NCBI GenBank assembly: GCA_041496385.1
Contig: JBGQEL010000002.1
Location: forward strand, 14,543 to 78,542
DNA: 64,000 nucleotides
Source of the DNA: Candidatus Methylomirabilia bacterium
GTDB lineage: Bacteria; Methylomirabilota; Methylomirabilia; Rokubacteriales; CSP1-6
Direction: 5' to 3'
This document shows positions 1,429-10,973 of this stretch, piece by piece (positions within the stretch are counted from its first letter, which is position 1; each line of letters opens with the position of its first letter). The notes beneath the pieces were generated by a model, which was not told where the DNA came from, did not search any database, and worked only from the letters and a program-made list of their open reading frames with translations. Position numbers and translations under genes: made by a program.

Positions 1429-3026
1429 TAGTTGATCCGCTTCTCCCGCCCCTTCCACTCCTTGTCGCGCAGGACGAACTTCTGCACCTTGCCGGTCGAG
1501 GTCTTCGGGAGGTCGCCGAACTCCACCGCCGCCGGGCACTTGAAGTGCGCGATGTGCTGCCGGCAGAACTCGATGATCTCCTGCGCCGTCGCCGTCCGGC
1601 CCGGCTTGAGCGTGACGAAGGCCTTCGGCCGCTCGCCCCACTTCTCGTCGGGGATCGCGACGACGGCGCACTCGAGCACGGCCGGATGCTTCGCGACGGT
1701 CTGCTCGACCTCGATGGTCGAGATGTTCTCGCCGCCCGAGATGATGATGTCCTTCTTGCGGTCGCGGAGCTCGATGTAGCCGTCGGGGTGCCACACCGCG
1801 ATGTCGCCCGAGTGGAACCAGTCGCCGCGGAAGGCCTCCGCCGTCGCCTCGCGCTGCGCGAAATAGCCCATCGCGGCGTTGTTGCCCCGCATGACGACCT
1901 CGCCGAGGGTCTCCGCGTCCTTCGGGACGTCGGTCATGTTGGCGTCGACGACCCGCACGAGGTCGAAGAGGGCGTAGCCTTGGCCCTGCCGCGCGGCGAC
2001 GCGCGCCTGCTCGTCGATCGGCAGCGCGTTCCACTCCTCGTGCCACGCGCACACGGTGTGGGGCCCGTAGGTCTCGGTGAGGCCGTAGACGTGGACGGGT
2101 CGGAAGCCGAGCTCCTTCATCCTGGCCAGGAGCGTCGGCGACGGCGGGGCGCCGGCGACCGTGACCGTCACCGGCCGTGTGAGCGTGTGGGCCTTCGGGT
2201 CGTTGATGACGCCGATGTGGACGGTGGGCGCGCCGTTGTAGTGGGTGATGCCCTCCGCGTCGATCATGTCCCAGATGCGCGTGGACTCGACCTTGCGGAG
2301 GCAGACGTGGGTGCCCCCGACGGCCGTGACGCCCCACGTGAAGCACCAGCCGTTGCAGTGGAACATCGGCAGCGTCCAGAGATAGCGGGCGTCGAAGCTC
2401 ATTGCCGTCTCGATGACCTCGCCGATCGCGTTGACCCACGCGCCCCGGTGCGAGTACATCACGCCCTTCGGCCGGCCCGTCGTGCCCGAGGTGTAGTTGA
2501 TGGCGAGCAGCTCCTCCTCGTCCTTGAGCCAGCTCTCGACCGACGCGGGCGAGCCGGTCGCGAGGAAATCCTCGTACGGGTCGCCGGCGGCGCCCGTGTC
2601 GTCGACGCGGATCACGCGGAGCCCCGAGAGATCGAGCGGCTTCACGACGGGCTCGAACTCCGCGTCCACGAACAGGAACCGAGCGCCGCAATGCGTGAGG
2701 ATGTAGCCGATCTCGTCCGAGCTCAGCCGGATGTTGATCGCCACGAGGACGCCGCCCGCCAGGGGGACGCCGTAGTGCGCCTCGAGCATCGCCGGCGTGT
2801 TCGGGCAGAGGAACGCCACGCGGTCGAGCTTCTCGAGGCCCGCGCGGCGCAGGCCCGAGGCGAGCCGGTTCGCGCGCGCCTCGAGCTGCGCGTAGGTGTA
2901 GCGGCGCCCGCCGTGCACGACGGCGGTCTTCTGCGGGAACACGTAGGCGCTGCGCGCGAGGAAGCTCACCGGCGTGAGCTCCGTCCGGTAGACGTGGCGA
3001 AAGTCGAGGTGGCGAAACTCGCTCAT
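1428..3026 (-). CDS. Acyl-CoA synthetase (AMP-forming, medium/long-chain or DmdB-like)
   Basis: MSEFRHLDF start with GGAGG RBS; INYTSGTTGRPKG, YGLTETYGP, FHSGD, DRKKDIIISGGENI, PKTSTGK. Confidence 0.92.
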   Translation of the reverse strand: MSEFRHLDFRHVYRTELTPVSFLARSAYVFPQKTAVVHGGRRYTYAQLEARANRLASGLRRAGLEKLDRVAFLCPNTPAMLEAHYGVPLAGGVLVAINIRLSSDEIGYILTHCGARFLFVDAEFEPVVKPLDLSGLRVIRVDDTGAAGDPYEDFLATGSPASVESWLKDEEELLAINYTSGTTGRPKGVMYSHRGAWVNAIGEVIETAMSFDARYLWTLPMFHCNGWCFTWGVTAVGGTHVCLRKVESTRIWDMIDAEGITHYNGAPTVHIGVINDPKAHTLTRPVTVTVAGAPPSPTLLARMKELGFRPVHVYGLTETYGPHTVCAWHEEWNALPIDEQARVAARQGQGYALFDLVRVVDANMTDVPKDAETLGEVVMRGNNAAMGYFAQREATAEAFRGDWFHSGDIAVWHPDGYIELRDRKKDIIISGGENISTIEVEQTVAKHPAVLECAVVAIPDEKWGERPKAFVTLKPGRTATAQEIIEFCRQHIAHFKCPAAVEFGDLPKTSTGKVQKFVLRDKEWKGREKRIN

Positions 3027-3131
3027 GGACCGTTCCTCCGACCTGGTTTGGGTCAGTGTACCCCAGGAGCACTTGCGCCGGGCGCCGACACCGACTGCCC
3101 TCCCGACGAATCCTGACTCGAGGAGGGACGC

Positions 3132-7027: not shown

Positions 7028-8725
7028 TCAGCCGTCCACACCGTGCGGCGCGCTCCCCGGCGAGGCGTCGCGCGCGACCGACTCGACCAGCGTGCCCGCC
7101 AGCAGCGCGCGCAGCTCATCCTCGCTGTGACGCGCGGCAAACGGCCTGAAGTTCTCGCCCGGGAACCGGTCCAGGAGATAGGCGCGGAGCAGGCGCTCGA
7201 TCGCCGGCGCGACCTCCGTCGCCGGCACGCGCAGCCCGATAGGCCGCGCCACGGCCTGGTGCAGGCCGAGAGCGCCGCCGACGCAGAAGTAGTAGGCGTC
7301 CACGAGCGCGCCGTCCACCTTCGCCTTCTTGCCCTCGATGCCGAGGTCGGCGATCCAGTGCTGGCCGCAGCTGTTCGGGCACCCGGTGACGTGGATCTTC
7401 AGGTGCTGCTCGAACCCTGGCAGCCGCGCCTCGAGCGCCTCGACGAGGCGCCGCGCGAAGCCCTTGGTCTCGGTGAGCGCGAGCTTGCAGAACTCCGAGC
7501 CCGTGCAGGCCACGGTGCCGCGCCGGAAGGGCGAGGCCTCCAGCGGGAGCCCGGCCGCCTCGAGCGCCTGCGCGAGCGCGCCGCCATGCTCGCGTCGGAC
7601 GTTCGGGATGAGGAGATTCTGCAAGTGCGTCGTGCGGATCTCGCCGGAGCCGAAGCGGTCGGCGAGGTCGGCGACCGCGCGCATGGCGGCCGGCGCGAGC
7701 CGCCCGCGCAGGACTGCGACGCCGGCGTAGACATAGCCCGGCTGCTTCTGCGGGTGGATTCCGACGTGATCGCGGTACACGTCGTCCGGCGGATCGTCCG
7801 GCACGCCCGGCTCGAGGGCCACGCCGAGCCGTTCCTCGATCGCGGCCTGGAAGCGCGCCGCCGTCCAGCCGTGCTGCAGGAAGAGGAACTTGAGCCGCGC
7901 CTTCTCGCGGTTCTGGCGTAGCACGTCGGAGTCGCGGAAGATCTCCGAGCTCGCGCGCAGGACCGGCAGGGCCTGGTGCCAGGGCACGAAGGCGTCGAGC
8001 CGCAGTGCCAGGTGCGGGTCGGTGGAGAGACCGCCGCCCACGCGCACGGCGAACCCGATCTCACCCGTCGCCGGGTGGCGCTGCGCCGTGAGCCCGACGT
8101 CGTTGATCTCCGGATAGGAGCACCACGCGCGGCAACCGGTGATCGTCACCTTGTACTTGCGCGGGAGGTTGTAGAAGGCGGGATTGCCGTTGAGCATCCG
8201 CGTCGCCGCGTGCACGAGCGGCGAGGCGTCGACCAGCTCGTCCCTGTCCGCGCCGGCGAGTGGGCAGCCCGTGACGTTGCGCGTGACGTCGCCGCACGAG
8301 CCGAGCGTCGTGACGCCGTTGAGCCAGAGCGTCTGGAACACCTCCGGGAGGCTTTCAAGGGCCACCCAGTGGAGCTGGATGTTCTGGCGCACGGTGACGT
8401 CGGCGACGCCGCGCGCGTGGCGCTCGGCGAGGTCGGCGATCGTCCGCAGCTGATGCGACTGGAGCGCGCCGTTCGGGATCCGGATGCGCACCATGAAGTG
8501 GCGCGTGGCCTTGCCCTCGCCGCCCTTGCCGCCGACGGCGCCGACGCCGTCACCCTGCGTGTAGATGCCCCACCAGCGGAAGTACGTCCCGATCCACTCC
8601 GGCGGGATCGCCTCCCATCCCTCGCGCGCGAAGCGGACGATCTCGGCGTACGCCTCCCACGGATTCTGCTCACGCTTGAGCCGCTCGACGCGCTGAGCCT
8701 TCGTCTCCTGGACGGCTTCGCTCAC
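7028..8725 (-). CDS. sir: Siroheme/[4Fe-4S] sulfite (or nitrite) reductase, ferredoxin type
   Basis: GTG after GGAGG; FMVRIRIP, TVRQNIQ, NLPRKYK; cluster ligands CTGSEFC and GCPNSC; adjacent siroheme synthesis genes. Confidence 0.88.
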   Translation of the reverse strand: MSEAVQETKAQRVERLKREQNPWEAYAEIVRFAREGWEAIPPEWIGTYFRWWGIYTQGDGVGAVGGKGGEGKATRHFMVRIRIPNGALQSHQLRTIADLAERHARGVADVTVRQNIQLHWVALESLPEVFQTLWLNGVTTLGSCGDVTRNVTGCPLAGADRDELVDASPLVHAATRMLNGNPAFYNLPRKYKVTITGCRAWCSYPEINDVGLTAQRHPATGEIGFAVRVGGGLSTDPHLALRLDAFVPWHQALPVLRASSEIFRDSDVLRQNREKARLKFLFLQHGWTAARFQAAIEERLGVALEPGVPDDPPDDVYRDHVGIHPQKQPGYVYAGVAVLRGRLAPAAMRAVADLADRFGSGEIRTTHLQNLLIPNVRREHGGALAQALEAAGLPLEASPFRRGTVACTGSEFCKLALTETKGFARRLVEALEARLPGFEQHLKIHVTGCPNSCGQHWIADLGIEGKKAKVDGALVDAYYFCVGGALGLHQAVARPIGLRVPATEVAPAIERLLRAYLLDRFPGENFRPFAARHSEDELRALLAGTLVESVARDASPGSAPHGVDG

Positions 8726-8735
8726 CGGTTCCTCC

Positions 8736-8780
8736 AAAGCGAAACCGGGAGGTGGGCGTGTCGCTCGCCCGTCCTCCCGG
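8736..8780 (-). terminator. Intrinsic terminator-like hairpin in the sir leader (candidate attenuator)
   Basis: Minus strand CCGGGAGG-ac-GGGCG-agcgaca-CGCCC-a-CCTCCCGG followed by TTTCGCTTT, then GGAGG and the sir start. Confidence 0.7.
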
Positions 8781-8826
8781 CTCTGGGTCTTCGTTGTCGA
8801 GACTGGCCGTTACGACGGCACCACGG

Positions 8827-8898
8827 TCACCCGATGTACTGACGTAGCGATCTCTCCCGCGCTTTACATCGCACTCGAGCCAACCGCTCCGGCGCCAT
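8827..8898 (-). CDS. Putative leaderless leader peptide MAPERLARVRCKARERSLRQYIG (23 aa)
   Basis: Only 6 nt separate the -10 box from the ATG at 8898; TGA at 8827-8829; single Cys codon; lies upstream of the terminator and the sulfur operon. Confidence 0.65.
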   Translation of the reverse strand: MAPERLARVRCKARERSLRQYIG

Positions 8899-8904
8899 GA
8901 CGGA

Positions 8905-8933
8905 AAACTACTATTCCCTATCGGCATTGTCAA
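8905..8933 (-). promoter_or_regulatory. Sigma70-type promoter of the sir operon
   Basis: TTGACA (8933-8928), 17-nt spacer, TAGTTT (8910-8905), inside an AT-rich patch. Confidence 0.75.
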
Positions 8934-8948
8934 GAATGATTTCGGCCA

Positions 8949-8961
8949 TATGTTAAACATA
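8949..8961. promoter_or_regulatory. Palindrome TATGTT-A-AACATA, candidate transcription-factor site
   Basis: Perfect 6-1-6 AT-rich inverted repeat in the divergent sir/prpE intergenic region. Confidence 0.4.
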
Positions 8962-9068
8962 GTTGACTGCTACTCCCAAAATCGGGAAGGGGCTTGCGCG
9001 ATGCGCGCGGGACGGCTAACGTGCCAGCGCTGACCCTGTCGGGGCAGCGTGCCGCGGGAGGATTCGAC

Positions 9069-10973
9069 ATGGCGAGAAGCATCTACGACGAGACCTACGC
9101 CCGCTCGATGAGGGATCCCGAGGCGTTCTGGGCCGCGGCGGCCGAGGACATCCACTGGGACAGGCGCTGGGACCGCGTCTTCGACGACTCGCGCAAGCCG
9201 TTCTACCGATGGTTCACGGGCGGCCTGCTCAACACCTGCTACAACGCGCTCGACCTGCACGTGGACCGCGGGCGCGGCAAGCAGCGAGCGCTCGTCTACG
9301 ACAGCCCGGTGACCGGCACCGTGAAGACCTTCACCTACCGCGAGCTGCGCGACGAGGTGGCGCGCCTGGCCGGGGCGCTGCGGCGCCAGGGCGTCGGCAA
9401 AGGCGACCGCGTGATCATCTACATGCCGATGGTCCCCGAGGCGGTCATGGCGATGCTCGCGTGCGCGCGCATCGGCGCGATCCACTCGGTGGTCTTCGGC
9501 GGCTTCGCCTCGAACGAGCTCGCCAAGCGCATCGACGACGCGCGGCCGCGGCTGATCCTCTCGGCCTCGTGCGGCATCGAGGTGAACCGCGCCGTGCCCT
9601 ACAAGCCGCTCCTCGATGGCGCGATCGATCTCTCGACGCACAAGCCCGAGCGCTGCGTGATCCTCCAGCGGGCACCCGAGCTCGCCCGTCTCTCGGCCGC
9701 GCGCGACCTGGACTGGGGAGACTTCGTCGCCGGCGCGCCGGCGGCGGAGTGCGTGCCCGTCGCGGCCACCGACCCGCTCTACGTCCTCTACACGTCGGGC
9801 ACGACGGGCGTGCCGAAAGGTGTGGTGCGCGATCACGGCGGCCACGCCGTCGCGCTCAAGTGGTCCATGACGAACGTCTACGGCATCGGCGCCGGCGAGA
9901 CCTACTGGGCCGCGTCGGACATCGGCTGGGTGGTCGGCCACTCGTACATCGTCTACGCGCCGCTCCTCAAGGGCTGCACGACGATTCTCTACGAGGGCAA
10001 ACCCGTCGGGACACCCGACCCCGGCGCCTTCTGGCGGCTCATCGCCCAGCACGGGGTCAGCGCCCTGTTCACCGCCCCCACCTCCTTCCGCGCGATCAAA
10101 AAGGAAGACCCGCAGGGCCACCACATCGCCAGGCACGACCTCCGAAACTTCCGCACGCTCTTCCTCGCGGGCGAGCGCTGCGATCCCGACACGCTCCACT
10201 GGGCCGAGGAGCGCCTCGGCGTGCCGGTCATCGACCACTGGTGGCAGACGGAGACGGGCTGGCCCATCGCCGCCAACTGCGTCGGACTGGGCGCGCTGCC
10301 GGTGAAGGCGGGCTCACCGACGAAAGCGGTGCCCGGCTACGACGTGCGCGTCCTCAGCGAGGAGAACACGGAGATGCCCGCGGGGCAGATCGGCTCGATC
10401 GCCATCCGGCTGCCGCTGCCGCCCGGCTGCCTGCCGACCCTCTGGAACAACGACGCGGGCTACGTGCAGTCCTACCTCGCGAAGCACCCGGGCTACTACC
10501 TCACGGCGGACGCGGGCTACCGGGACGAGGACGGCTACCTCTACATCATGAGCCGCGTGGACGACATCATCAACGTCGCCGGCCACCGGCTCTCGACCGG
10601 CGCCATGGAGGAGGTGCTGGCCGGGCATCCCGACGTGGCCGAGTGCGCGGTCGTGGGCGTCGCCGACGAGATCAAGGGCGAGGTCCCGGTAGGTTTCGTG
10701 GTCACGAAGGCCGGGGTCGAGCGGAGCGAGGCGGACATCGCGGGCGAGCTGGTCCAGCGCGTGCGCGCGCAGATCGGGCCCGTGGCCGCCTTCAAGACCG
10801 CGATCCTCGTGAAGCGGCTGCCCAAGACGCGCTCGGGCAAGATCCTGCGCGGCACCGTGAAACGCATCGCAGACGGCCTGGAATACACGCTGCCCGCGAC
10901 GATCGACGATCCGGCGATTCTCGACGAGATCGCTGAGGCGCTCCGCCAGAAGGGCTACGCGAAGGAGCGCTGA
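9069..10973 (+). CDS. prpE: Propionyl-CoA synthetase
   Basis: MARSIY start after GGAGG; NTCYNALD, YTSGTTGVPKG, DHWWQTETGW, LPKTRSGKILR, PATIDDP. Confidence 0.9.
   Translation: MARSIYDETYARSMRDPEAFWAAAAEDIHWDRRWDRVFDDSRKPFYRWFTGGLLNTCYNALDLHVDRGRGKQRALVYDSPVTGTVKTFTYRELRDEVARLAGALRRQGVGKGDRVIIYMPMVPEAVMAMLACARIGAIHSVVFGGFASNELAKRIDDARPRLILSASCGIEVNRAVPYKPLLDGAIDLSTHKPERCVILQRAPELARLSAARDLDWGDFVAGAPAAECVPVAATDPLYVLYTSGTTGVPKGVVRDHGGHAVALKWSMTNVYGIGAGETYWAASDIGWVVGHSYIVYAPLLKGCTTILYEGKPVGTPDPGAFWRLIAQHGVSALFTAPTSFRAIKKEDPQGHHIARHDLRNFRTLFLAGERCDPDTLHWAEERLGVPVIDHWWQTETGWPIAANCVGLGALPVKAGSPTKAVPGYDVRVLSEENTEMPAGQIGSIAIRLPLPPGCLPTLWNNDAGYVQSYLAKHPGYYLTADAGYRDEDGYLYIMSRVDDIINVAGHRLSTGAMEEVLAGHPDVAECAVVGVADEIKGEVPVGFVVTKAGVERSEADIAGELVQRVRAQIGPVAAFKTAILVKRLPKTRSGKILRGTVKRIADGLEYTLPATIDDPAILDEIAEALRQKGYAKER

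What the first reader, a model, noticed from the sequence alone, without database searches (positions are those of the whole stretch)
8726..8933. Candidate cysteine/sulfur-sensing attenuator: leaderless single-Cys leader peptide plus terminator ahead of the sulfite reductase operon
Seen (minus strand): TTGACA-17-TAGTTT, then 6 nt, then ATG at 8898, so the transcript probably begins at the start codon. The 23-aa ORF MAPERLARVRCKARERSLRQYIG ends at 8827. Its only Cys codon (8868-8866) lies in the 5' arm of a 7-bp stem (CGATGTA 8871-8865 with TACATCG 8838-8832). The enclosed CGGGAG (8859-8854) is complementary to the 3' arm of the terminator. Two small hairpins follow (8819-8806, 8803-8787), then a GC-rich terminator with U tail (8780-8736) directly against the GGAGG of sir. 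Known: ribosome-mediated attenuation, and leaderless poly-Cys sORFs that control cysteine genes in mycobacteria. Inference: with one Cys rather than a run, and a distinctive RERSLRQYIG-stop end, this may be a different class, possibly an arrest peptide sensing Cys or sulfur status. I do not recognise it as a described leader.
Basis: partly seen in the sequence, partly recalled or inferred. Interest (0 to 1): 0.85.

Follow-up and report, generated by a model that had tools for sequence, protein, structure and literature searches.

The report
Eroded cysteine leader before sulfite reductase
The 23-codon reading frame ahead of the sulfite reductase gene is the cut-down remnant of a small four-cysteine zinc-ribbon gene that, in related uncultured soil bacteria, forms a conserved leader with a terminator ahead of sulfur-assimilation genes and is in some relatives replaced by a run-of-cysteine leader peptide.

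Summary
The sequence features are real: TTGACA-17-TAGTTT, ATG 6 nt later, a 23-codon ORF, and a strong terminator-like hairpin against the sir ribosome site. The peptide is not a conserved arrest peptide. It is an internally deleted, decayed remnant of a 60-75 aa four-Cys zinc-ribbon gene that lies at this place in related Rokubacteria/Methylomirabilota. The tail RERSLRQYIG is eroded WVEVPLRYVG. This genome has no intact copy.

The locus does belong to a leader family for which my two literature searches on the topic and Rfam gave no description. The family has a conserved promoter with an operator-like spacer, a usually leaderless Cys-containing ORF, a purine-rich tract of 4-5 AGNC units, and an intrinsic terminator. 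It precedes sir, cysH, a beta-carbonic-anhydrase-like gene or a peroxiredoxin gene.

In one genus the zinc-ribbon ORF is replaced by leaderless poly-Cys sORFs such as MKKATGRALEHRCCCPGAA. This supports cysteine sensing by translation at family level. No antiterminator was found, so the mechanism stays inferred. Here the sensor looks eroded: one Cys codon and a weak tract match.

The parts
8905..8933 (-). Promoter: -35 TTGACA (8933-8928), 17-nt spacer with operator-like CCGATAGGGAATAG (8927-8911), -10 TAGTTT (8910-8905)
   Evidence: Sequence. The same TTGACAAT-N2-CGATnGACAAT-N3-TAnnnT block occurs in 38 other distinct promoter instances of related loci. A weight matrix built from them finds only this site in the window's genome at training level. 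The consensus scan did not flag it.
8827..8898 (-). 23-codon ORF (ATG 8898, TGA 8829-8827), probably leaderless. It is a remnant of the zinc-ribbon leader gene and has a single Cys codon at 8868-8866.
   Evidence: The start ATGGCGCC and the last ~50 nt (TGTAAAGC...GGGTGA) align to the intact gene of the same-genus genome G001. About 130 nt net are missing, and indels lie in the tail.
8815..8898 (-). Long imperfect hairpin that spans the whole remnant ORF. The 5'-terminal AUGGCGCC pairs with GGUGCCGU just past the stop.
   Evidence: -41.3 kcal/mol, z -3.80, 0 of 200 shuffles. The same fold appears.
8779..8812 (-). Purine-rich AGNC-unit tract, partly eroded (ACGGC, CAGUC, AAGAC, GAGCC)
   Evidence: This is the 5' part of the covariance-model match 8812-8736 (33.2 bits against 54-73 for most elements next to intact ORFs).
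8734..8786 (-). Intrinsic-terminator-like hairpin: core arms 8780-8773 and 8752-8745, inner stem 8770-8766/8758-8754, tail UUUCGCUUU 8744-8736. The lower stem reaches the first Gs of the SD.
   Evidence: -31.9 kcal/mol, z -4.66. The stem is conserved with compensatory changes in 39 relatives. The terminator scan did not flag it.
7028..8735 (-). SD GGAGG (8735-8731) and sir (GTG 8725 to stop at 7028), a ferredoxin-type sulfite reductase
   Evidence: Pfam NIR_SIR 5.8e-48 and NIR_SIR_ferr 1.5e-38. The start is placed by homologues.

Best explanation
The region is an eroded member of a Rokubacteriales-specific leader that controls sulfur-assimilation operons.

Full form of the leader: a sigma-70-type promoter with a conserved operator-like spacer; a transcript that usually begins at or near the start codon of a Cys-containing ORF (most often a 60-75 aa four-Cys zinc-ribbon protein); a purine-rich tract of 4-5 AGNC units; an intrinsic terminator whose base overlaps the last unit; then the SD of sir (or cysH, a beta-carbonic-anhydrase-like gene, or a peroxiredoxin gene).

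In this window an internal deletion has cut the zinc-ribbon gene to 23 codons with one Cys. The promoter, the start codon, the ancestral stop and the terminator are kept.

Shown: homology of the ORF to the zinc-ribbon gene, its decay, absence of an intact copy in the genome, and conservation of promoter, tract and terminator.

Inferred:
- sir is transcribed by read-through of the leader terminator.
- In the family, read-through (or downstream translation) responds to cysteine supply through ribosomes translating the Cys codons, as in mycobacterial poly-Cys leaderless sORFs.
- In this genome that sensing is weak or lost. The leader then acts mainly as a leaky terminator under promoter/operator control.
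For: Identity of the ORF:
- 12 of 20 sir upstream regions from relatives hold the zinc-ribbon ORF.
- The window ORF aligns at its start and its last residues (RCKA...Y.G*).
- The nucleotide alignment to same-genus G001 shows the deletion. The other same-genus genome, G002, lacks ORF and terminator altogether.
- No intact copy is found in the window's genome (best E 1.4; completeness 100%).

Protein reality: median dN/dS is 0.27 over 491 pairs, and third-position entropy is about twice that of positions 1 and 2. The AlphaFold2 model has pLDDT 84.7.

Family:
- 39 of 43 distinct intact-ORF loci carry tract plus terminator.
- The terminator stem has compensatory changes, for example G-C 23 / A-U 14 at one pair.
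- The covariance model hits 24 of 41 relatives and 46 of 151 phylum genomes.
- The window is the only hit in its genome.

Sulfur link: the cassette precedes sir, PAPS_reduct (cysH), Pro_CA and 1-Cys peroxiredoxin genes. In L069 it stays at the operon's 5' end, ahead of a siroheme-synthase-like gene and then sir.

Cys sensing:
- Three genus-g35 genomes carry leaderless sORFs with CCC or CCCPGCC in place of the zinc-ribbon ORF.
- The metagenome scan added 15 complete such leaders with 12 distinct peptides. Their N-termini vary, while the Cys run plus PG (PA in one of the 12) and the TAGTAT-N7-ATG spacing are kept.
- Three other genomes (two genera) keep 28-codon N-terminally deleted mini-ORFs, open to the ancestral stop, with 2-3 Cys (L121, L124, L126).
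- Two cysH leaders have MRCSCIGRCPG and MLHSCPGELPS.

Precedent: the Canestrari et al. preprint 10.1101/834739 (abstract and Discussion read).
Against: - No conserved alternative pairing to the terminator's 5' arm was found in 39 aligned zinc-ribbon leaders (RNAalifold on the alignment cut before the 3' arm gave no pairs).
- In 14 of 14 poly-Cys leaders the terminator keeps probability 1.00 when the Cys region is held single-stranded as under a stalled ribosome.
- The distance from stop codon to tract varies from 2 to about 33 nt.
- Two leaders have tract and terminator with no usable ORF (L082, L122).
- The zinc-ribbon ORF is under protein-level selection, which codon sensing alone does not need.
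- The window has one Cys codon. The mycobacterial work used two consecutive Cys as its threshold.
- Four intact-ORF loci lack the terminator, so ORF and terminator are separable.
- The window's U-tract is interrupted (UUUCGCUUU).
- There are no transcript data.
Confidence: 0.6

Rival explanations
1. A trans-acting factor, not the ribosome, is the sensor. A protein (possibly the zinc-ribbon protein itself, which has net charge about +6 by my count) or a small molecule binds the AGNC-unit tract. The tract's last unit overlaps the base of the terminator, so binding decides whether the terminator closes, in the manner of HutP or TRAP on NAG-triplet repeats (those two systems are recalled, not tested). 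In the window the factor gene is lost and the tract is decaying.
For: - The tract is conserved in sequence across loci whose Sir proteins are only 66-92% identical to the window's.
- [AC]GNC units occur 4.3 per element against 1.72 +/- 0.14 in shuffles, with 66% of spacings at 6-8 nt.
- The tract and terminator persist in ORF-less leaders. One is the cysH leader of G001, whose zinc-ribbon gene lies at the sir locus (L082).
- No antiterminator hairpin was found.
- Elements in genomes without an intact zinc-ribbon gene score lower: 33-52 bits in G000, G072, G075, G067, G121, G126 and G143, against mostly 54-73.
- Some family members are labelled 'phage FluMu protein Com' by one source.
Against: - Three g35 genomes and 15 metagenome leaders keep a well-formed tract with a poly-Cys sORF and no zinc-ribbon gene.
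- The lower scores are partly built in, because the model was trained only on elements next to intact ORFs.
- Pfam and NCBIfam give no RNA-binding family at cutoff, and Foldseek gives only generic zinc ribbons (best E 0.26).
- The elements are related, so the repeat statistics describe one consensus, not independent events.
- No Rfam riboswitch matches.
Confidence: 0.22
2. There is no sensing at all here. The hairpin is simply the terminator of the former small gene, leaky enough to let sir be made, and the 23-codon ORF is a neutral relic. All regulation sits at the promoter/operator.
For: - The ORF tail is scrambled by indels, and only one Cys is left.
- The sister genome G002 does without ORF and terminator.
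- The tract match is weak (33.2 bits).
- One low-depth variant contig changes the last codon from Gly to Arg, and another breaks a terminator pair.
- The operator-bearing promoter is kept even where the leader is gone (L002, L008, L029).
Against: - The terminator stem is fully intact while the ORF next to it decayed.
- The ORF is still open from the ancestral start to the ancestral stop, as in three other mini-ORF loci.
- The ORF region folds far better than shuffles (z -3.80).
- There is no room for a promoter between the terminator and the sir SD.
Confidence: 0.15
3. One reading: a new class of single-Cys arrest peptide (C-x-x-RERSL-x-QYIG) that senses cysteine or sulfur status.
For: The ORF, the Cys codon placed in a stem, and the terminator exist as described.
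Against: - No homologous leader keeps the peptide.
- The tail is eroded WVEVPLRYVG.
- The other mini-ORFs read ...RCKARVWMPLRCLG...RCKASVDAPRRCLG and ...RCKAWVEVPLRYLG.
- One variant contig changes the final Gly.
Confidence: 0.03

Closest known systems
Polycysteine leaderless sORF attenuators of mycobacteria (Canestrari et al., bioRxiv 10.1101/834739; abstract and Discussion read)
   Same: A leaderless short ORF is the first cistron ahead of cysteine/sulfur genes, and Cys codons are the likely sensed element. The g35 relatives and metagenome leaders carry CCC or CCCC runs near the stop.
   Different: There the stalled ribosome opens an RBS-sequestering duplex (translational control), and no terminator is involved. 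Here a strong intrinsic terminator and an AGNC tract follow the ORF. Most family members encode a real 60-75 aa zinc-ribbon protein. The window has only one Cys codon. The phylum is different.
Classical leader-peptide transcription attenuation (trp, his and similar; established knowledge)
   Same: A leader ORF is followed by an intrinsic terminator directly before the first structural gene. A textbook-looking Trp leader (MTRSESLWWWRRWWCPEGGRTAPA plus terminator before a trpE-like gene) exists in a related genome (L087).
   Different: No antiterminator or anti-antiterminator pairing could be found. There is no run of regulatory codons in the window.
Candidate Cys leader peptides of Actinobacteria (Seliverstov et al. 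2005, PMC1262725; passages read)
   Same: Short ORFs with runs of Cys codons near the stop, upstream of cys operons.
   Different: Those were reported 'without obvious terminators'. Here the terminator is the best-conserved structure.
TRAP / HutP protein-mediated attenuation on NAG-triplet repeats (recalled, not from a call)
   Same: Periodic NAG-containing units lie next to or overlap a terminator arm.
   Different: There are only 4-5 units of AGNC. No TRAP- or HutP-like protein was looked for or found. This is a resemblance only.
CysX, the small CxxC ferredoxin-like protein next to cysI in Corynebacterium glutamicum (as described in a passage of Price et al., bioRxiv 10.1101/072470)
   Same: A small protein with CxxC motifs is encoded beside a ferredoxin-type sulfite reductase gene.
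   Different: Homology was not tested, because no CysX sequence was available to me. Here the gene lies upstream, at the 5' end of the operon, and is repeatedly lost or shrunk.

Membership tests
Rokubacteriales zinc-ribbon/Cys leader of sulfur-assimilation operons (defined here) | Conserved promoter with the TTGACAAT-N2-CGATnGACAAT spacer block | tested here: met
   The weight-matrix score of the window site is 29.3-45.6, above the training minimum. It is the only such site in the genome.
Rokubacteriales zinc-ribbon/Cys leader of sulfur-assimilation operons (defined here) | First cistron homologous to the four-Cys zinc-ribbon ORF | tested here: inconclusive
   Only a remnant is present. The start and the last ~17 codons align at nucleotide level. 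The profile search of the genome finds nothing.
Rokubacteriales zinc-ribbon/Cys leader of sulfur-assimilation operons (defined here) | AGNC tract plus terminator matched by covariance model R1 | tested here: met
   33.2 bits, E 1e-5 in the window and 7.1e-4 genome-wide. This is weaker than most members, which score 54-73 bits.
Polycysteine leaderless sORF attenuators | Transcript starts at the start codon | not testable with these tools
   Only the spacing is known: the -10 ends 6 nt before the ATG. No RNA run was listed.
Polycysteine leaderless sORF attenuators | At least two consecutive Cys codons in the sORF | tested here: not met
   The window has one Cys codon. The feature is met in 3 g35 genomes and 15 metagenome leaders.
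Polycysteine leaderless sORF attenuators | Stalled ribosome opens a structure that blocks downstream expression | tested here: inconclusive
   Constrained folding shows no change in the terminator in 14 of 14 poly-Cys leaders. RBS sequestration was not systematically tested.
Classical leader-peptide transcription attenuator | Intrinsic terminator between the leader ORF and the first gene | tested here: met
Classical leader-peptide transcription attenuator | Mutually exclusive antiterminator that overlaps the leader ORF | tested here: not met
   No conserved pairs were found in the truncated alignment of 39 leaders. In the window the minimum-free-energy fold does offer an alternative pairing of both terminator arms, but this is not conserved.
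Known riboswitch or other Rfam family | Match to an Rfam covariance model | tested here: not met
   There were 0 matches at gathering score in the window. Only E > 8 noise appeared at 8400-9400. Nothing lay on the leaders of 7 related loci.

The most novel reading that the evidence does not exclude
The four-Cys zinc-ribbon gene is a dual-purpose first cistron. Its translation reports cysteine supply, and its basic protein product binds the AGNC units beside the terminator to set read-through. Over time this protein gene has repeatedly shrunk into mini-ORFs (as in this window), and in one genus into a true poly-Cys leader peptide. That would be a documented birth of a leader-peptide attenuator from a protein-coding gene.
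Probability: 0.2. Interest if true: 0.8.

Novelty: new variant of a known kind. Interest (0 to 1): 0.55.

Why it matters
Cysteine-sensing leader ORFs are so far known from Actinobacteria, where they lack obvious terminators and act on translation. Here an uncultured soil and sediment phylum shows a conserved leader for sulfite reductase, APS/PAPS reductase and other sulfur-linked genes. The leader joins a Cys-rich first cistron to an intrinsic terminator and to an unexplained periodic purine tract.

The natural series runs from the zinc-ribbon gene, through truncated mini-ORFs, to poly-Cys sORFs, and on to ORF-less or leader-less forms. It gives ready-made 'mutants' for testing how such leaders work and how they arise. 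For the window itself the practical message is annotation: the 23-codon ORF is a gene remnant, not a new peptide class.

Tried and rejected
Searches that gave no match:
- Rfam gave no family for the window or for 7 intact leaders.
- Pfam and NCBIfam on four zinc-ribbon proteins gave only sub-threshold generic zinc-ribbon matches.
- Foldseek against PDB gave nothing at E <= 0.001. The best hits were Elf1, Rpb9 and NrdR ribbons, E 0.26 and above, TM about 0.4.
- The protein atlas returned only unnamed clusters and one Mut7-C cluster, at scores 0.94-0.95.

Ideas dropped:
- A pairing model GGC:GCC plus GUC:GAC for the tract was dropped. The trinucleotides are nearly invariant, so no covariation is possible, and the g35 leaders read GCC in place of the first GGC.
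- An antiterminator was sought by RNAalifold on 39 leaders cut before the 3' arm (no pairs). It was also sought by folding 14 poly-Cys leaders with the Cys region held unpaired (terminator probability 1.00 in both states). Neither gave one.
- A regulon search with the promoter/operator matrix in the window's genome found only the sir promoter.
- A strict scan of the genome for leaderless sORFs with two consecutive Cys codons found none.

Sequencing runs:
- No RNA holder was listed, so start and end of the transcript could not be examined.
- Contigs of four DNA runs gave three low-depth variants and no indel in the leader. This is too little for a test of selection.

Supplementary files of the papers were not opened (closed); tables of mycobacterial sORFs there might bear on the two-Cys threshold.

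Dropped rows:
- L016 was left out of the upstream survey because its contig starts inside sir.
- Four intact-ORF loci without the tract were left out of alignment A3.
- The reverse-strand hit L102:1523-1599 was left out of the unit count.
- L141 and L158 were set aside as chance matches inside coding sequence.
- L123 (G009, 32.7 bits) looks like an ordinary gene-end terminator.

Unpublished genomes:
- G010 (locus L008, one of the three leader-less examples), G024 and G078 are unpublished.
- G024's locus L013 equals the public contig behind L042. I used L042 in A3, but protein alignment A2, which seeded, holds L013.
- G024 also enters the tallies, and G078 that.

Full report
**Observation.**
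On the minus strand the window reads TTGACA (8933-8928), 17 nt, TAGTTT (8910-8905), 6 nt, and ATG at 8898. The ORF is MAPERLARVRCKARERSLRQYIG, with TGA at 8829-8827. After about 45 nt comes CCGGGAGG-AC-GGGCG-AGCGACA-CGCCC-A-CCUCCCGG-UUUCGCUUU (8780-8736). Then follow GGAGG (8735-8731) and the GTG of sir at 8725. Sir is a ferredoxin-type sulfite reductase by Pfam. The next genes are a siroheme-synthase-like gene and, further on, a 1-Cys peroxiredoxin. An acyl-CoA synthetase gene diverges on the plus strand.

The terminator stretch folds at -31.9 kcal/mol (z -4.66). The whole ORF forms one long hairpin at -41.3 kcal/mol (z -3.80). The simple consensus scan flagged neither the promoter nor the terminator. 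It found only a plus-strand promoter-like site at 8927-8954. Rfam gave nothing.

**What the ORF is.**
I searched 41 related genomes with Sir; 27 have a match. I then read 20 upstream regions. Twelve hold a 60-75 aa ORF with the motifs RCPxC...NAIL(K/R)V...AKCxRCKAWVEVPL(R)YxG*, directly behind the same promoter.

The window's 23 residues align to the start and to the last residues of this protein, RCKA...Y.G*. A nucleotide alignment with the same-genus genome G001 shows three things. The window keeps the start (ATGGCGCC) and the last ~50 nt. It lacks about 130 nt net of the middle. It carries small indels in the tail, so that RERSLRQ is eroded WVEVPLR. The other same-genus genome, G002, has lost ORF and terminator entirely, and its promoter abuts the sir SD.

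The window's genome is 100% complete by markers in 167 contigs, and no intact copy was found in it (six-frame hmmsearch best E 1.4).

The family has no curated Pfam or NCBIfam model at cutoff. It counts 763 proteins at E <= 0.001 in the 90% clusters and 138 representatives at 50%. Sources name it mostly 'hypothetical protein'. The contigs that carry it are titled Rokuibacteriota, Rokubacteria or Methylomirabilota, with one 'Binatia' and some 'uncultured bacterium'. It is a real protein. Median dN/dS is 0.27 over 491 pairs of the 32 equal-length cores. The AlphaFold2 model is an all-beta zinc ribbon with pLDDT 84.7. It has no specific structural relative.

**The leader family.**
Of 43 distinct loci with an intact ORF, 39 have a conserved stretch after the stop. 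It reads (A)AGGC-N3-5-GUC-N5-11-AGAC-N3-5-AGCCG(G/A)G, runs into a GC-rich hairpin, and ends in GGCUUU... Four loci lack it.

RNAalifold on the 39 elements predicts only the terminator stem, with compensatory changes at 5 of 10 pairs. A covariance model of the element matches the window at 8812-8736 (33.2 bits, E 1e-5), and that is its only match in the genome. The model hits 24 of 41 relatives and 46 of 151 genomes sampled across the phylum. Those hits lie almost only in three families of one order. The protein profile hits 43 of the same 151.

By my reading of the two tables, 37 genomes have both, 9 have the RNA only, 6 have the protein only and 99 have neither. This co-occurrence is expected for adjacent parts of one cassette.

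Across 60 distinct elements, the tract upstream of the terminator contains 4.3 [AC]GNC units against 1.72 +/- 0.14 in shuffles, and 66% of spacings are 6-8 nt. The elements are related, so this describes one consensus.

**Where else the cassette sits.**
- In one genus the whole cassette (promoter, leaderless zinc-ribbon ORF, tract, terminator) precedes a 163-aa beta-carbonic-anhydrase-family gene.
- Elsewhere it precedes cysH (PAPS_reduct) or a 1-Cys peroxiredoxin.
- In L069 it precedes a siroheme-synthase-like gene that is followed by sir.
- Two cysH leaders have tiny ORFs (MRCSCIGRCPG, MLHSCPGELPS) before the tract.
- The cysH leader of G001 and the sir leader of G075 have tract and terminator with no usable ORF.

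**Variants that speak to mechanism.**
Three genomes of genus g35 carry leaderless sORFs with Cys runs in place of the zinc-ribbon ORF. The spacing is TAGTAT, 7 nt, ATG. The peptides are MKKAVVSRRAHRCCCPGCCPGAPQAF, MKKATGRALEHRCCCPGAA and MKQVMISVAQHFCCCPAGDRGAF. Tract, terminator and sir follow.

A metagenome scan with the g35 tract found 66 stretches. Eighteen distinct contexts passed a tract filter. Two of these are chance hits in coding sequence, one is cut by a contig end, and 15 are complete leaders with 12 distinct peptides. Their N-termini differ, while the Cys run followed by PG (PA in one of the 12) and the leaderless spacing are kept. These leaders form one clade retrieved by its own tract, so they are not independent.

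A fourth g35 genome still has the zinc-ribbon cassette. Its alignment to a poly-Cys leader suggests, but does not prove, that the sORF descends from the 3' half of the gene: VKNA...AKCPRCKAW to MKKA...HRCCCPG.

Three further genomes keep 28-codon N-terminally deleted mini-ORFs that run to the ancestral stop, with 2-3 Cys (L121, L124, L126). L074 keeps only the 5' half, run onto the sir start. The window is thus one of several separate reductions of the same gene.

**Mechanism.**
There is no room for a promoter between the hairpin and the sir SD. sir must therefore be made by read-through, which is the layout of an attenuator. The repeated retention or gain of Cys codons in a leaderless first cistron points to ribosome sensing of cysteine supply. 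This is shown for mycobacterial poly-Cys sORFs, where it acts on translation (10.1101/834739, abstract and Discussion). Actinobacterial Cys leaders were reported without obvious terminators (PMC1262725, passages).

I could not find how a stalled ribosome would act here. No conserved alternative pairing exists in 39 leaders. Holding the Cys region unpaired leaves the terminator at probability 1.00 in 14 of 14 poly-Cys leaders.

In the short-ORF forms, including the window, the 5' end of the RNA pairs with sequence just past the stop. The meaning of this is open.

The periodic tract, kept even without an ORF, suggests a bound factor. The basic zinc-ribbon protein is a candidate, but poly-Cys genomes lack it.

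My odds are 0.6 for the stated best explanation, 0.22 for a trans factor as the main sensor, 0.15 for no sensing in this genome, and 0.03 for the arrest-peptide idea.

**State of the window's copy.**
It has one Cys codon, a scrambled tail, and a tract that scores 33 bits against 70 in its sister genome. The terminator is intact and the ORF is still open. Contigs from other sediment samples show three low-depth substitutions and no indel. One turns the last Gly into Arg and one breaks a stem pair. This fits an eroding sensor in front of a still-working, probably leaky terminator.

**Comparison and novelty.**
Two literature searches aimed at this found no description of it: Rokubacteria with sulfite reductase, sulfate assimilation, riboswitch and attenuation terms, and leader peptide with cysteine codons, attenuation, terminator and sulfur. 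Both cover only the held library. I rate the finding as a new variant of a known kind (Cys leader-ORF attenuation), with an unexplained extra element (the AGNC tract) and an unusual first cistron.

Noticed in passing
L087 (G027:C6), about locus 2830-3060: A textbook-looking tryptophan leader: promoter, ORF MTRSESLWWWRRWWCPEGGRTAPA with five Trp codons, a terminator with a U-run, then a gene whose N-terminus looks like anthranilate synthase (not Pfam-tested). It surfaced as a weak hit of the RNA model (35.8 bits; sequence).
   Followed up: partly
L076-L078, L083-L086 (genus g28): The complete sulfur leader cassette precedes a 163-aa beta-carbonic-anhydrase-family gene (Pro_CA 2.5e-13) in genomes where the Sir query found nothing (0 of 8 genomes of genus g28). 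Enzymes of this fold include carbonyl-sulfide and CS2 hydrolases (recalled), so this may be a sulfur-acquisition gene.
   Followed up: partly
window 8927-8954 (+): A plus-strand promoter-like site, TTGTCA-16-TATGTT, shares its -35 with the minus-strand TTGACA. It may serve the divergent acyl-CoA synthetase gene that starts at 9069.
   Followed up: no
L010, L011, L018, L030: In four relatives the sir reading frame is open far upstream (701-997 aa). The upstream sequence looks like the end of a sulfate adenylyltransferase gene (my reading, not Pfam-tested). This may be a sat-sir fusion or a tight overlap.
   Followed up: no
G000:C38:3405-4913 (+), outside the window: A second, 39%-identical sir-like match in the window's genome carries one in-frame TGA.
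   Followed up: no
L004/L032, just after the -10: A 16-nt tandem duplication (ATGACTGAGGCGGCTA ATGACTGAGGCGGCTG...) lies at the start of the zinc-ribbon ORF. The first copy runs into a stop and the second is in frame.
   Followed up: no
L020, L030, L033: The operator-bearing promoter block also occurs away from the zinc-ribbon ORF. In L020 and L030 it occurs in loci fetched with a second sir-like gene and with a sat-sir locus. In L033 it occurs as a second copy in a locus where a cysteine-synthase-like gene end precedes the ORF. This hints at a small regulon in some genomes. In the window's genome only the sir promoter matches.
   Followed up: partly
L118-L120, L132-L189 poly-Cys leaders: The 5' segment GAAGG(C/U)C, which forms codons 2-4 (KKA or KKV), is complementary to GGCCUUC just after the stop. 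The pairing survives a 3-codon insertion in L189 through wobble pairs. CCUUCU also resembles an anti-SD.
   Followed up: partly
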